From: a virus
Direction: 5' to 3' (one strand)
IMG/VR virus record: IMGVR_UViG_3300017917_000616
Span: 28,603-92,602 of that record
DNA: 64,000 nucleotides
The translations under genes and the position numbers were made by a program. Under the pieces are notes generated by a model, which saw only the letters and a list, made by a program, of their open reading frames with translations, was not told the origin of the DNA and ran no database searches. Shown in pieces: positions 53,078 through 60,951 of this stretch (positions are counted from its first letter, which is position 1; each line of letters begins with the position of its first letter).

Positions 53078-53867
53078 AGGTTTTATAGGTAGAAACATGC
53101 TACAGTATTTGGAAGATAATACTGATTGGCAGGTTGACACTTTTGATTGGCGCGGCGACATTATGCCAGGCATAATGGATAAAGACTGGGTCATACATAT
53201 AGGTGCTATAAGCTCTACAACGGAACGTGATATTGATAAAATCATGAAGCAAAATTATGATTTTTCTCGACAATTGTTTAAAGTATGTAAAACCTATGGA
53301 GTAAATCTACAATATTCTAGTACAGCTAGTTTATATGGAATGGGAACAAACTTCAGCGAAGAGGCACAACTTGATCCTATAACTCCGTACGCATGGTCAA
53401 AATATCTATGTGAGCGTTACCATCAGATGACCCAAGGTGGAAATATTGTACAGGGATTTAGGTATTTCAACGTTTACGGTAACGGGGAAGAACATAAAGG
53501 TAGTCAAGCTAGCCCCATTTCAAAATTCAAAAAACTAGCAGAAAACAACGAGCCTATTAAAATTTTTGAAGGTTCGAATGAATATTTTCGTGATTTTGTC
53601 TGTGTAACAGACGTATGTAGAGTACATGTTGAATTCATCAAAAATGTAAAAGAATCAGGTATTTTTAACATAGGTACTGGAAAAGCACGTAGCTTTCAAG
53701 AAGTCGCTGACTTGATTTCTAGCAATCAAGAATACATTCCTATACCAGAACATCTGCTTAGAAGCTATCAAAAATACACATGTAGCGATAATTCTAAGCT
53801 AGAGCGGGTACTAGGACCGCAAAAATGGATAACAATAGAAGATTTTTTAAAGTCACAAAAAGTTTGA
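53052..53867 (+). CDS. hldD: ADP-L-glycero-D-manno-heptose 6-epimerase-like SDR
   Basis: TGHKGFIG, HIGAISSTTE, YAWSK (YxxxK), FRYFNVYG..E.HKGSQAS, RDFV, YQKYT; TTG start. Confidence 0.88.
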   Translation: MKILLTGHKGFIGRNMLQYLEDNTDWQVDTFDWRGDIMPGIMDKDWVIHIGAISSTTERDIDKIMKQNYDFSRQLFKVCKTYGVNLQYSSTASLYGMGTNFSEEAQLDPITPYAWSKYLCERYHQMTQGGNIVQGFRYFNVYGNGEEHKGSQASPISKFKKLAENNEPIKIFEGSNEYFRDFVCVTDVCRVHVEFIKNVKESGIFNIGTGKARSFQEVADLISSNQEYIPIPEHLLRSYQKYTCSDNSKLERVLGPQKWITIEDFLKSQKV

Positions 53868-53878
53868 TAAGTATGATT

Positions 53879-54433
53879 ATGCCAAGTCCACAGAAACAGA
53901 AGGGTTCAGGTTTTGAACGAGAAGTTGCTAAGTTTTTAAGCAATTTATATAACGAGAGTTTTATCCGAGCACCAGGATCCGGAGCGTATGTGGGCGGTAC
54001 AAATCAATCTAGGAAAGAATTCCTACATGAAGGTCAAATTCGTAGCTTTAAAGGGGACATAGTTCCTGGACAAAGTTTTTCGAAAATGAATGCTGAATGT
54101 AAGAGTTACAAAGACTTCCCCTTTCACCTACTTCTTACAGGTGAATGCGCTCAATTTGACAAGTGGCTAGAACAACTGTTAGATGTAGCAGATCCTGATG
54201 ATATGAACATTCTGTTTATGAAATTCAATCGTATAGGTCGTTATGTCGCTGTACAACCAAAACTAACATGGATGATTGATAGTTTCACTTTCTATGGTAG
54301 TAAAAAGTACGGTGATTGGTATATCACAGAGTTCGACAACTTTTTCAAACTCAATAAAGACTTAGTAAAACTTTACTCAGGCTCATCAGACACCAAGTCA
54401 ATCTCAACTCCCAAACAATTAATTCAGGCTTAA
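53879..54433 (+). CDS. PD-(D/E)xK nuclease, Holliday junction resolvase (Hjc-like)
   Basis: KGSGFEREVA...SGA...GDI...AECK. Likely start MPSPQ, 5 nt after a GATAAGTA box; the ORF track starts at 53825. Confidence 0.75.
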   Translation: MPSPQKQKGSGFEREVAKFLSNLYNESFIRAPGSGAYVGGTNQSRKEFLHEGQIRSFKGDIVPGQSFSKMNAECKSYKDFPFHLLLTGECAQFDKWLEQLLDVADPDDMNILFMKFNRIGRYVAVQPKLTWMIDSFTFYGSKKYGDWYITEFDNFFKLNKDLVKLYSGSSDTKSISTPKQLIQA

Positions 54434-54444
54434 TATAAATTAAA

Positions 54445-54810
54445 AATTAGCAGGCTGTGTTTGACAGTCCTCCTTGAAGAAGCGTGAAATATCGCCGATG
54501 GATCTGGAGTATCGATGTTAGTAATAACATCGGATCACCGAGAGGGCAATCTGTCTAGGGAACCCTCAATGAGTACATATCTAATTCCATTTTGCGGATA
54601 TGTAACATGCGTTGTCGAGGCATCATATAATAGAGAATATGACAGTCTCACTACAAACCCGTAAAAATTTACAGGACAACCGGTGACATGTGAGAACAAA
54701 AACGGTTACTCATGTGGGGTATAAATGGCAATGGATGACGGGCATGGCAAGTCTTTTCCAATGGTAGTGCTGAAATAGCACTACCATGGCTTCAAAGCGG
54801 CAAGTATAGT
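54445..54810 (+). ncRNA. Putative large structured non-coding RNA (family unassigned, ends approximate)
   Basis: Nested helices, including CGATGTTA-GTAA-TAACATCG, long-range TCACCG/CGGTGA and GTTGTC/GACAAC, TACATATC/GATATGTA and an 11-bp ATGGTAGTGCT/AGCACTACCAT. A GNRA loop and G-U pairs work on the plus strand. TATAAAT box at 54434-54440. Confidence 0.7.
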
Positions 54811-54844
54811 TTCCCCTTAATAAAGTGAATACAGAATTAAAACG

Positions 54845-54903
54845 ATGCTGAACAATACGAACGAAGTGAGTATTGTGATAGCATAGATGACCGAAGGTCA
54901 TCT
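54845..54903 (+). other. Two adjacent hairpins with cGAAg triloops and tandem GA mismatches (ssDNA-type structure, possibly also a terminator)
   Basis: ATGCT-GA-ACAATAC-GA-AC-GAA-GT-GA-GTATTGT-GA-T-AGCAT followed directly by AGATGACC-GAA-GGTCATCT. Confidence 0.75.
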
Positions 54904-54955
54904 TTAAATGAGTGTGACAATTACCCTAAGTTACTATAATGAATAGCTACGGATA

Positions 54956-55183
54956 TTAAAAGAATGGCAATCTAGAATTCTTAGTAGTTTCTAAGTTTTC
55001 TTCAATCAGTTTAGCTATACTTTCTCTTTCACTCATACTCATATTAAGTATATCGGTGTAGGAAGCCCCGCCTCTCATATACCAAGCCATTTTTAATGAA
55101 TTGGCTTTGATGGCTTTACACTCCTCTTCCATTTGACTTATCAACTTCTTAATTTCCTCGGAGTCAAGGAAAAGAAGTCTCAT
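54956..55183 (-). CDS. Baseplate hub assembly catalyst (gp51-like position)
   Basis: Short ORF (WYMRGG.SY..I.NM...ER) coupled by ATGA to the gp26-like gene. Confidence 0.6.
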   Translation of the reverse strand: MRLLFLDSEEIKKLISQMEEECKAIKANSLKMAWYMRGGASYTDILNMSMSERESIAKLIEENLETTKNSRLPFF

Positions 55184-56007
55184 GCGAAAAAATCGGATAC
55201 GTTGATGTTAAATGGCTGATCGTATTCATGTTGACAATGAATACATTGAAAATGTAATGGTTTAGTTTCAGTAGATTTTTTAAGTTCTACACTGTAGTTT
55301 CGTATCTGGTCATATGTTTTTAGGTCGCAATTATCTAAAAACTCTTTAATATGGCTTCTATCTAGCACAGTGGCGTTTGGTGTTTTTACATATTCGATAG
55401 ATTCTAATACCAATTCTCTAGCCAGATCATTCATACTTTTAATCAACTCACTACTTTGCTTATCACGCTCAGGGCTATCGTCCATAGCACTGATTCTGTT
55501 CAACTGATATTGAACCTCAAACTGTGCGGATCCAGCTTTATTGATTTTAGTAAAATCTAAAGGTTTAAACTTAATTTTTAGTTCACTGATATCTAACGTT
55601 TTAGCATAATTTCCGGGCTTATAGTTTCCTAATAAACCAGTAAGATTAATATCATACTTGCCCTCTTCTGTGCAGCTTGGGCATACAGTTTCTATTTCCA
55701 TAGTATCGCCATTGCTAGCAATCTTAATAGCAAGCAAGACCGCATCTAAATCTAGTTGAAGAATATGCCATGGATCTTTTATGTTTGGGGCACAGCTTTT
55801 AATCAGTTCTGTAACAGCAATACCGTTGAATAAAGCATCGGGAGTTCTGCTGGTGATTTCATCAATCGCAGTCATAGGATAAATGGGTATTTCTCCGTTG
55901 TCAGGTAAATCTATACTACCCTCTGGGTAACCTTGTCCCCCTGAGGGCAACTTCAGGTACAGAGCAGGTCTACGAAAATAGTTTTGTAATGGGTTGATAT
56001 CTGACAT
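55180..56007 (-). CDS. Baseplate hub assembly protein (T4 gp26-like)
   Basis: LKLPS.G, I.PMT..DE, D...L.IKIAS.G, CPSC and CIHC. Confidence 0.8.
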   Translation of the reverse strand: MSDINPLQNYFRRPALYLKLPSGGQGYPEGSIDLPDNGEIPIYPMTAIDEITSRTPDALFNGIAVTELIKSCAPNIKDPWHILQLDLDAVLLAIKIASNGDTMEIETVCPSCTEEGKYDINLTGLLGNYKPGNYAKTLDISELKIKFKPLDFTKINKAGSAQFEVQYQLNRISAMDDSPERDKQSSELIKSMNDLARELVLESIEYVKTPNATVLDRSHIKEFLDNCDLKTYDQIRNYSVELKKSTETKPLHFQCIHCQHEYDQPFNINVSDFFA

Positions 56008-56037: not shown

Positions 56038-56067
56038 ACTAAATACAATTATACCAAAGTATTTATA
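56038..56067. promoter_or_regulatory. Face-to-face late promoters: ACTAAATA (plus, 56038-56045) and TATAAATA (minus, 56067-56060)
   Basis: Both lie in the 71-nt gap between divergent genes; the minus-strand box is the exact T4 late consensus. Confidence 0.7.
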
Positions 56068-60726: not shown

Positions 60727-60951
60727 ATGAAACTCTTTGAAATGTATGACGCCCCGGTACAAGGATACCAAGATGTATCACAAGACCAGAGTAAATGGAA
60801 ATGGGGCGAAACTCGTAAGACTAAACTAACTCTAAGACAAATACGCAAGTTACGTAAGATGTTGGATGTTAGGAATTACGAACAGGCAAAAAATCTTAAA
60901 AAGATACGTAAACAATACGAACCTGTAGCACAAGAACAGCCTACACTATAA
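60727..60951 (+). CDS. Small head-module protein
   Basis: 74 aa with basic TRKTKLTLRQIRKLR, between the portal and core genes. Confidence 0.7.
   Translation: MKLFEMYDAPVQGYQDVSQDQSKWKWGETRKTKLTLRQIRKLRKMLDVRNYEQAKNLKKIRKQYEPVAQEQPTL

What the first reader, a model, noticed from the sequence alone, without database searches (positions are those of the whole stretch)
54434..54955. A ~520-nt non-coding island folds into an ornate multi-domain structure next to a nuclease gene: candidate new large phage ncRNA or RNA-primed origin
Seen: this is the only large gap in a genome whose other gaps are about 125 nt or less, and it starts with a late-promoter-like TATAAAT (54434-54440) right after the resolvase stop. 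Helices read by eye: GGCTGT/ACAGTC (54453-69); CTCC/GGAG (54470-73/54506-09); CGATGTTA-GTAA-TAACATCG (54513-32, GNRA loop). A long-range TCACCG/CGGTGA (54535-40/54681-86) closes a multiloop holding GAGGG/CCCTC (54542-67), TACATATC/GATATGTA (54574-604) and GTTGTC/GACAAC (54611-16/54675-80, flush-stacked on the closing helix). That last helix encloses GAGGC..TCATAT/ATATGA..GTCTC (54617-49) and GTAA/TTAC (54661-72). Further 3' lie an interrupted hairpin (54686-715) and a perfect 11-bp hairpin (54761-87). All helices are mutually compatible, and the G-U pairs and GNRA loop work on the plus strand. Established: T4 origins and ColE1 use transcript R-loops as primers, and large ornate phage RNAs (GOLLD, ROOL) exist. 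Inference: a functional RNA of roughly 350-460 nt that could be a replication-primer RNA, an RNP partner of the upstream PD-(D/E)xK nuclease, or a scaffold or ribozyme. I could not match it to tmRNA, RNase P or group I/II intron motifs.
Basis: partly seen in the sequence, partly recalled or inferred. Interest (0 to 1): 0.88.

Follow-up and report, generated by a model that had tools for sequence, protein, structure and literature searches.

The report
Large twin-box RNA of giant phages
The only long gene-free gap in this giant T4-like phage fragment encodes a real non-coding RNA with a core of about 355 bases and two pseudoknots; hundreds of uncultured relatives keep it at the same spot, no RNA catalogue lists it, and its job is still unknown.

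Summary
Window 54434-54955 has no conserved reading frame and is the only large ORF-free gap. It is conserved (66-81% identity) at the same position in every related viral contig fetched: nuclease gene, then the gap, then a small ORF and the baseplate hub gene on the other strand.

On 90 distinct sequences aligned without reference to structure, 103 proposed pairs are 93% paired, against 33-42% when partners are slid. Seventy pairs show compensatory changes. G-U pairs outnumber A-C pairs 532 to 125, so the plus strand is the RNA.

I add:
- two covariation-supported pseudoknots;
- a divergent "type 2" form in related phages;
- two short direct-repeat "twin boxes" flanking a near-invariant hairpin, which change together letter for letter.

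Rfam 15 (4227 families), ARAGORN, one genome for each of 185,579 bacterial and archaeal species, and cultured phage records gave no match.

Function is unknown. My best guess is a trans-acting folded RNA whose twin-box/hairpin module binds a two-fold partner. An origin-primer role and a role as nuclease partner remain unproven, and the nuclease link is weakened.

Earlier follow-ups of this scan reported the same family on other genomes.

The parts
53825..54433 (+). Upstream neighbour: PD-(D/E)xK nuclease / RusA-like resolvase gene
   Evidence: Pfam PF24608 at 9e-25; PHROG 244. It precedes the RNA in nearly all relatives, but is separated from it by an extra ORF in a few.
54441..54446 (+). -10-like box, conserved as nA(a/c)AAT, about 7 nt before the first helix; candidate promoter element
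   Evidence: Near-invariant columns 4, 6, 7 and 8 of A2; upstream sequences listed. Its function is inferred, not shown.
54447..54805 (+). Conserved RNA core (type 1), about 355 nt
   Evidence: blastn and nhmmer find it in all type-1 loci.
54453..54469 (+). P1 hairpin
   Evidence: 5 of 6 pairs show compensatory changes (helix 2).
54470..54509 (+). P2 (54470-73 / 54506-09, plus GA/UC at 54476-77 / 54503-04) enclosing hairpin P2a
   Evidence: helices 3 and 4. P2 covaries between type 1 and type 2.
54514..54532 (+). P3 hairpin with a GNRA loop; tolerates 40-50 nt inserts in some relatives
   Evidence: helices 5 and 6; inserts seen.
54536..54685 (+). P4 (54536-40 / 54681-85), which closes the multi-helix junction
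   Evidence: helix 7: 98% paired, 3 pairs compensatory.
54542..54567 (+). P5 / P5a hairpin
   Evidence: helices 8 and 9: 100% and 99.6% paired.
54569..54608 (+). P6 / P6a hairpin; its loop forms pseudoknot 1
   Evidence: helix 10: 10 of 11 pairs compensatory.
54587..54592 (+). Pseudoknot 1, 5' strand; pairs with 54723-54728
   Evidence: Found by mutual information. 5 of 6 pairs compensatory, 99.1% paired (helix 11).
54611..54680 (+). P7 (54611-16 / 54675-80), with variable arm P7a (54617-49) and a conserved junction
   Evidence: helices 12-14.
54657..54660 (+). Pseudoknot 2, 5' strand; pairs with 54717-54720
   Evidence: helix 15: 4 of 4 pairs compensatory, 97.3% paired.
54687..54716 (+). P8 hairpin
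   Evidence: helix 16: 9 of 11 pairs compensatory.
54717..54728 (+). 3' strands of pseudoknot 2 (54717-20) and pseudoknot 1 (54723-28)
54742..54752 (+). Twin box 1
   Evidence: Position 54742 changes letter for letter with 54797: GG 64, UU 17, CC 5. Tree test: 8 independent contrasts, p about 0.008.
54758..54789 (+). P10, the perfect hairpin, highly conserved in sequence
   Evidence: helix 18. It is still conserved in loci retrieved by protein rather than by this motif, with rare compensatory variants.
54797..54805 (+). Twin box 2
54806..54846 (+). A-rich linker, variable in length and poorly conserved
   Evidence: Alignments.
54847..54882 (+). Tail hairpin 1, with tandem G-A internal loops and a GAA cap
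   Evidence: Conserved in type 1 and type 2; type 2 carries GNRA tetraloops at the same place.
54885..54903 (+). Tail hairpin 2 (8 bp, GAA triloop); candidate 3' end or terminator
   Evidence: 6 of 7 pairs covary. The U-tract is weak, and the terminator scan does not call it.
54956..55183 (-). Downstream neighbour: conserved 75-aa ORF, translationally coupled to the hub gene
   Evidence: no Pfam or PHROG family.
55180..56007 (-). Baseplate hub gene (T4 gp51/gp26-type)
   Evidence: Pfam PF12322; PHROG 150.

Best explanation
Window 54447-54903 (plus strand) is a gene for a stand-alone non-coding RNA of a new family.

**Architecture.** A core of about 355 nt folds into some ten helices around a multi-helix junction. 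Two long-range pseudoknots lock the fold: the P6 loop and the P7 junction both pair with the segment that follows P8. An A-rich linker and two stable hairpins follow the core.

**Transcription (inferred).** I infer that the RNA is made rightward, either from the conserved -10-like box just after the nuclease stop or by read-through from the nuclease gene. I also infer that it ends at the tail hairpins.

**Mode of action (inferred).** I infer that it acts in trans as a folded RNA, either as the RNA part of an RNP or as an RNA machine. It does not look like a riboswitch or a guide.

**Most likely working part (inferred).** The 3' module is my candidate. It is the near-invariant hairpin P10 flanked by two short boxes that stay identical to each other while they change between phages. 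I read this module as a two-fold binding platform for a partner that must read both boxes alike.

The existence, strand and fold of the RNA are shown. The promoter, the ends and the mode of action are inferred.
For: **Conservation and synteny.**
- blastn finds 66-81% identity in 35 of 41 protein-retrieved loci and in all 120 motif-retrieved loci.
- The flanking hub protein is only 37-62% identical, yet the gene order is fixed.
- 516 viral contigs carry the neighbouring nuclease.

**Structure.**
- RNAalifold: 79 pairs, 48 with compensatory changes.
- On the unfitted 90-sequence alignment: 103 pairs, 93.2% paired against 33-42% when slid; 70 pairs compensatory; 0 of 500 shuffles reach the observed values.
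- Both pseudoknots were found blind by mutual information.

**Strand.** G-U 532 against A-C 125. The tandem G-A motifs work only on the plus strand.

**Not coding.**

**Not cellular.** No exact match to the P10 hairpin pattern in the collection holding one genome for each of 185,579 bacterial and archaeal species.

**Single copy.** One copy in the 92.6-kb record.

**A type-2 homologue with the same architecture.**

**Twin boxes.**
- Type 2: the two 7-mers are identical in 41 of 44 distinct sequences, across 7 different variants, with constant spacing of 48-59 nt.
- Type 1: same-letter covariation has mutual information of 1.09 bits, and no third column covaries.
- The tree test gives 8 independent contrasts, all in the same direction.

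**Against riboswitch coupling.** The linker between core and tail hairpins is long, variable and A-rich.
Against: - No transcript data could be obtained here, so the promoter, the ends and even expression are inferred for this window.
- The consensus scans find no promoter upstream of the RNA and do not call tail hairpin 2 as a terminator; they report only internal promoter-like sites at chance level and two minus-strand terminator-like sites inside the core.
- No partner for the twin boxes was identified. No complementary segment occurs in the RNA or in 3.5 kb around it.
- The strict identity of the boxes is not explained by simple pairing between them.
- I found no homologue in a cultured phage, so nothing links the RNA to a phenotype.
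- The P10 invariance seen in A2 is partly an ascertainment effect of the search pattern. One search corrects for this.
Confidence: 0.6

Rival explanations
1. Origin-primer RNA. The transcript folds so that part of it stays hybridised to the template (an R-loop) and primes leading-strand synthesis, as at T4 oriF/oriG or ColE1 RNA II. The twin boxes and P10 would then be DNA-level or hybrid-level initiation signals.
For: - The slot lies at the border between recombination/replication genes and baseplate-hub genes. From memory, T4 oriF (uvsY) lies next to genes 25-26-51. I did not test this.
- In phage Phosso the equivalent gap abuts an RNase HI gene.
- Direct repeats flanking a hairpin resemble iterons.
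- Earlier follow-ups made the same guess. That is not independent evidence.
Against: - R-loop origins need no ornate, doubly knotted RNA with about 70 covarying pairs.
- There is no skew or AT-rich unwinding signal at the site.
- P10 tolerates G-U pairs on the plus strand, which fits RNA rather than a DNA cruciform.
Confidence: 0.15
2. Cis-acting 3' element. The structure is the 3' UTR of the nuclease mRNA and/or a barrier or terminator between convergent operons. It would protect the mRNA or limit antisense read-through into the late hub operon.
For: - The RNA starts at, or overlaps, the nuclease stop codon.
- The two tail hairpins sit exactly between convergent genes.
- The A-rich linker reads as a U-rich run on the minus strand after hairpin 1.
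Against: - A 355-nt core with two pseudoknots and many invariant unpaired bases is far more than a terminator or a stabiliser needs.
- The core stays intact when extra genes separate it from the nuclease or from the small ORF.
- A conserved -10-like box precedes it.
Confidence: 0.1
3. Dedicated RNA partner or guide of the adjacent PD-(D/E)xK nuclease.
For: The two genes are adjacent in nearly all loci, and the RNA overlaps the end of the nuclease gene, as reRNA/omega-RNA does for TnpB.
Against: - The nuclease family (PF24608, PHROG 244) is a common phage resolvase type. It occurs in PA5oct, Campylobacter phages and other phages, where my models and motifs found no such RNA.
- Some relatives carry another ORF between the nuclease gene and the RNA.
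- The RNA has no hypervariable guide-like segment.
Confidence: 0.05
4. A DNA-level element only (protein-binding palindromes or recombination site), or a missed small protein gene.
For: - Both strands fold better than shuffled sequence.
- P10 is a near-invariant palindrome.
- Chance ORFs of 49-63 aa exist in the gap.
Against: - G-U pairs outnumber A-C pairs 4 to 1.
- There are about 70 compensatory pairs, including pseudoknots.
- No frame stays open across relatives, and there is no codon periodicity.
Confidence: 0.03

Closest known systems
GOLLD (RF01998) and ROOL (RF03087) large ornate RNAs
   Same: They are large, intricately folded non-coding RNAs of unknown function that are often carried by phages. 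They show many covarying helices and conserved junctions. From the paper: cryo-EM shows that they form RNA-only homo-oligomers (PMC12286853, listed).
   Different: - No sequence or structure match: cmscan gives nothing, even at E up to 10.
- This RNA is smaller (about 355 nt against roughly 580-800 nt, from memory).
- No tRNA genes lie nearby.
- It has the twin-box feature.
- Oligomerisation was not tested.
Polynucleobacter-1 motif (RF01718; Weinberg et al. 2010, PMC2864571)
   Same: It is reported from Burkholderiales and from fresh-water or estuary metagenomes. Earlier follow-ups of this scan named it as the closest family.
   Different: I tested this here. RF01718 gives no match at E up to 10 in this window's genome. 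It gives no match above its cut-off in three cultured jumbo phages. This RNA is not a member of that family.
ColE1 RNA II and T4 oriF/oriG origin transcripts
   Same: In these systems a structured or persistent transcript beside replication genes becomes a primer. The genomic position of this RNA is compatible with that role.
   Different: Those transcripts do not have a conserved, doubly pseudoknotted core. No origin evidence was found here.
IscB/TnpB omega-RNA (HEARO) and phi29 pRNA
   Same: They are phage or mobile-element RNAs of 170-400 nt that work as the structured subunit of a protein machine. Omega-RNA overlaps the end of its nuclease gene.
   Different: - Rfam gives no match.
- The neighbouring gene is a small resolvase-type nuclease, not IscB or TnpB.
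- There is no guide segment.
- There is no link to packaging genes.

Membership tests
Any Rfam 15 family (4227 models) | Score at or above the family's gathering threshold | tested here: not met
   No hits in the whole window. In 54300-55100 at E up to 10 there were only three chance-level hits.
Polynucleobacter-1 (RF01718) | Covariance-model match | tested here: not met
   No match at E up to 10 in the 92.6-kb record. It is absent from the list.
GOLLD / ROOL | Covariance-model match | tested here: not met
   No Rfam hit for either family.
GOLLD / ROOL | Frequent neighbourhood of tRNA genes | tested here: not met
   ARAGORN finds no tRNA in the 64-kb window.
GOLLD / ROOL | Homo-oligomeric RNA-only assembly | not testable with these tools
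   This needs native gels or cryo-EM.
tmRNA / RNase P RNA / group I or II intron | Model match; tRNA-like domain or flanking exons | tested here: not met
   ARAGORN finds none and Rfam finds none. The element lies between a stop codon and convergent genes, so there are no exons.
Intrinsic terminator (tail hairpin 2) | GC-rich stem followed by a U-run | tested here: inconclusive
   The stem is conserved and covaries. The U-run is weak and variable, and the scan does not call it.
Twin-box 'resolvase-slot' RNA reported by earlier follow-ups of this scan | Position between the resolvase-type nuclease gene and the small ORF plus hub gene | tested here: met
Twin-box 'resolvase-slot' RNA reported by earlier follow-ups of this scan | Doubly pseudoknotted core of about 350 nt | tested here: met
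Twin-box 'resolvase-slot' RNA reported by earlier follow-ups of this scan | Two short boxes that change together | tested here: met
T4-type replication origin (oriF/oriG) | Promoter plus downstream unwinding element; initiation activity | not testable with these tools
   Only a composition profile could be run, and it shows no signal.

The most novel reading that the evidence does not exclude
The RNA could be a new catalytic or self-assembling RNA machine of giant phages. In this reading the two identical boxes do not bind a third party. Instead they pair with each other in an unusual two-fold symmetric way, closing the P10 arm into a symmetric docking or active site. The pairing could be a homo-base-paired parallel tract, or a tandem G-A duplex. 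In the GUCGGAA variant of type 2 that duplex becomes Watson-Crick. An origin-priming role for such a fold would be equally new.
Probability: 0.15. Interest if true: 0.95.

Novelty: categorically new. Interest (0 to 1): 0.8.

Why it matters
Large RNAs with this much conserved tertiary structure are rare. Nearly all of them have turned out to be ribozymes, riboswitches or cores of RNP machines.

This one is kept at a fixed place in several hundred uncultured giant T4-like phages. It is absent from the cellular genomes searched and is catalogued nowhere.

Its twin boxes, two separated short sequences that mutate yet stay identical, are a kind of covariation that ordinary base pairing does not explain. 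That gives a concrete, testable handle on what the RNA binds or how it folds.

It adds a new class to the short list of large phage RNAs of unknown function (GOLLD, ROOL).

Tried and rejected
- **Rfam.** Gathering and E-value modes on the window, on PA5oct, Phosso and Ecwhy_1 gaps, and on a type-2 locus gave nothing relevant.
- **ARAGORN.** Nothing.
- **blastn against 50,697 phage records.** No match.
- **Model R1 (3' domain).** No hit in the type-2 loci, PA5oct or Phosso.
- **Model R2 (5' domain).** The automatic consensus kept only 5 pairs, so this model is weak. It gave no significant hit in the whole E. coli jumbo phage Ecwhy_1, in PA5oct or in Phosso.
- **nhmmer and motif scans on the same targets.** Nothing.
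- **Outer helix.** A helix joining the 5' leader to box 2 (A2 columns 12-14 with 506-508) has no compensatory change and is dropped.
- **Partner for the twin boxes.** No complement was found inside the RNA or nearby.
- **Module-free forms.** A search for family members lacking P10, which would indicate a mobile insertion with a target-site duplication, found only truncated contigs.
- **Promoter/terminator scan and skew profile.** Uninformative.
- **Literature.** No paper naming this RNA was found.

Full report
**What is there.**

The window is part of a 92.6-kb viral record. CheckV rates the record about 20% complete, so the phage is probably giant.

The gap at 54434-54955 follows the stop codon of a PD-(D/E)xK resolvase-type nuclease gene (Pfam PF24608, PHROG 244). 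It ends at the stop codon of a 75-aa ORF that is coupled to a T4-type baseplate hub gene on the other strand. A perfect T4 late promoter box lies upstream of the hub gene.

The nearest cultured relatives, by protein only, are jumbo myoviruses: PA5oct, Atu_ph07, Phosso and Asteriusvirus. With ORFs of at least 75 aa, this is the only large ORF-free gap in the window.

**Is it more than chance?**

Folding energy beats shuffles on both strands (z = -4.0 and -4.4). That does not choose a strand. Comparative data are decisive.

- A protein-based search for the nuclease gave 41 viral contigs. In 35 of them the gap is alignable at 70-79% identity, and all share the same gene order.
All are homologous beyond the motif and all have the same synteny.
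- A second nuclease search matched 516 contigs.
- The gap has no conserved frame and no codon periodicity.

**Structure.**

RNAalifold on 22 whole gaps predicted 79 pairs, 48 of them with compensatory changes.

I then tested 103 pairs in 18 helices on 90 distinct core sequences aligned by MAFFT, without fitting to any structure:
- 93.2% of cells are paired, against 33-42% when partners are slid.
- 70 pairs have compensatory changes.
- None of 500 shuffles reaches the observed values.

A blind mutual-information scan revealed two pseudoknots. The first pairs 54587-92 with 54723-28. The second pairs 54657-60 with 54717-20. Both are 97-99% paired and nearly every pair is compensatory.

G-U pairs outnumber A-C pairs 532 to 125, so the plus strand is the RNA.

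The small one at 54661-72 is invariant and cannot be tested. An outer helix proposed by the folding program is not supported.

After the core come an A-rich variable linker, a rod-like hairpin with tandem G-A loops (54847-82) and an 8-bp hairpin (54885-903). Both hairpins covary or are conserved.

**A wider family.**

About 45 of 75 further loci lack the type-1 3' domain. They carry a divergent "type 2" RNA with the same plan:
- the first hairpin;
- the second helix with its conserved UUGAG bulge, which covaries between the two types;
- the conserved junction words;
- a P10-like hairpin that covaries;
- the linker and both tail hairpins, here with GNRA loops.

GNRA loops fit RNA.

In some loci an extra ORF of unknown family sits between the nuclease gene and the RNA, or between the RNA and the small ORF. 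The RNA is therefore not strictly tied to either neighbour.

**The odd feature.**

Two short direct repeats flank P10 and change together.
- In type 2 the two 7-mers are identical in 41 of 44 distinct sequences. They occur as seven different variants, at a constant spacing of 48-59 nt.
- In type 1 the first letter of the boxes (54742 and 54797) is G/G 64 times, U/U 17 times and C/C 5 times. Further matched variants occur downstream.
- On a tree built without these columns there are 15-17 changes at each site. Eight independent contrasts all go the same way (p about 0.008).
- No third column covaries with them, and no complement lies nearby.

Simple pairing between the boxes would not force them to be identical. 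However, in one type-2 variant the presumed tandem G-A pairs of an antiparallel box-box duplex become Watson-Crick pairs. This is my reading of the sequences.

P10 itself is highly conserved even in loci that were not selected by its sequence, with rare compensatory variants.

**What it is not.**
- No Rfam family matches at any sensible threshold.
- It is not tmRNA and not tRNA.
- It is not Polynucleobacter-1, which earlier notes named as the closest family.
- It is not found in the collection holding one genome for each of 185,579 bacterial and archaeal species.
- It is not found in 50,697 phage records by DNA search.
- It is not detectable in the whole genome of an E. coli Asteriusvirus, or in the PA5oct and Phosso slots. 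Those phages do, however, keep ORF-poor gaps of 0.8-1.5 kb in the equivalent place.

**How it most likely works.**

Shown: a conserved, plus-strand, compactly folded RNA.

Inferred:
- It has its own promoter (a conserved -10-like box at 54441-46), or it is made by read-through from the nuclease gene.
- Its 3' end lies at the tail hairpins.
- It acts in trans, because the long variable linker uncouples the core from the hairpins, and because no same-strand gene follows.

I commit, with modest confidence, to an RNP or RNA-machine role in which the twin-box/P10 module is a two-fold binding platform.

Rivals are an origin-primer RNA, a cis 3' element between convergent operons, a partner of the nuclease (weakened), and a DNA-only element (largely refuted).

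**Novelty.**

I found no paper describing this RNA. A 2023 survey of IMG/VR reported mostly short candidates (about 67 nt on average) and does not name it (PMC10690425).

Earlier follow-ups of this scan reported the same family, including the twin boxes, on other genomes. My tests agree on its existence, the pseudoknots and the twin boxes. They do not reproduce the Polynucleobacter-1 link or the presence in E. coli phages.

Noticed in passing
L165:2014-2445, L171, L201, L172, L203 and about 40 more loci: A divergent 'type 2' form of the RNA occupies the same slot in related phages. It has the same architecture, but its own P10 hairpin and its own twin boxes (GGAUGAU-like; one lineage has GUCGGAA).
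   Followed up: partly
window 54388-54401: A 14-nt word at the 3' end of the nuclease gene is conserved at nucleotide level across relatives, at a variable distance from the RNA. It is duplicated in L055 and L017. It may reflect a conserved C-terminal peptide or a signal.
   Followed up: no
L245:7041-7880 (E. coli phage Ecwhy_1), L163:2168-3680 (PA5oct), L164:2260-3273 (Phosso): Cultured jumbo phages keep ORF-poor gaps of 0.8-1.5 kb between the resolvase-type gene and the hub/small-ORF pair. I detected no homology to this RNA there. These gaps could hold other RNAs.
   Followed up: partly
L198:2013-3020 and L128:3162-3773: Extra ORFs of 335 aa and 203 aa, with no Pfam family, are inserted next to the RNA in some relatives: between the nuclease gene and the RNA, or between the RNA and the small ORF.
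   Followed up: partly
window 56060-56067 (minus strand): An exact T4 late-promoter box, TATAAATA, lies about 50 nt upstream of the hub gene start, in the divergent region shared with the 947-aa gene.
   Followed up: no
window 60727-60951: A co-oriented 74-aa ORF fills the only other gap longer than 300 nt. It is probably a small gene.
   Followed up: no
L017, L056, L066, L072, L119 (P3 region): Inserts of 40-50 nt extend hairpin P3 in some relatives. P3 is therefore a peripheral arm that tolerates expansion.
   Followed up: no
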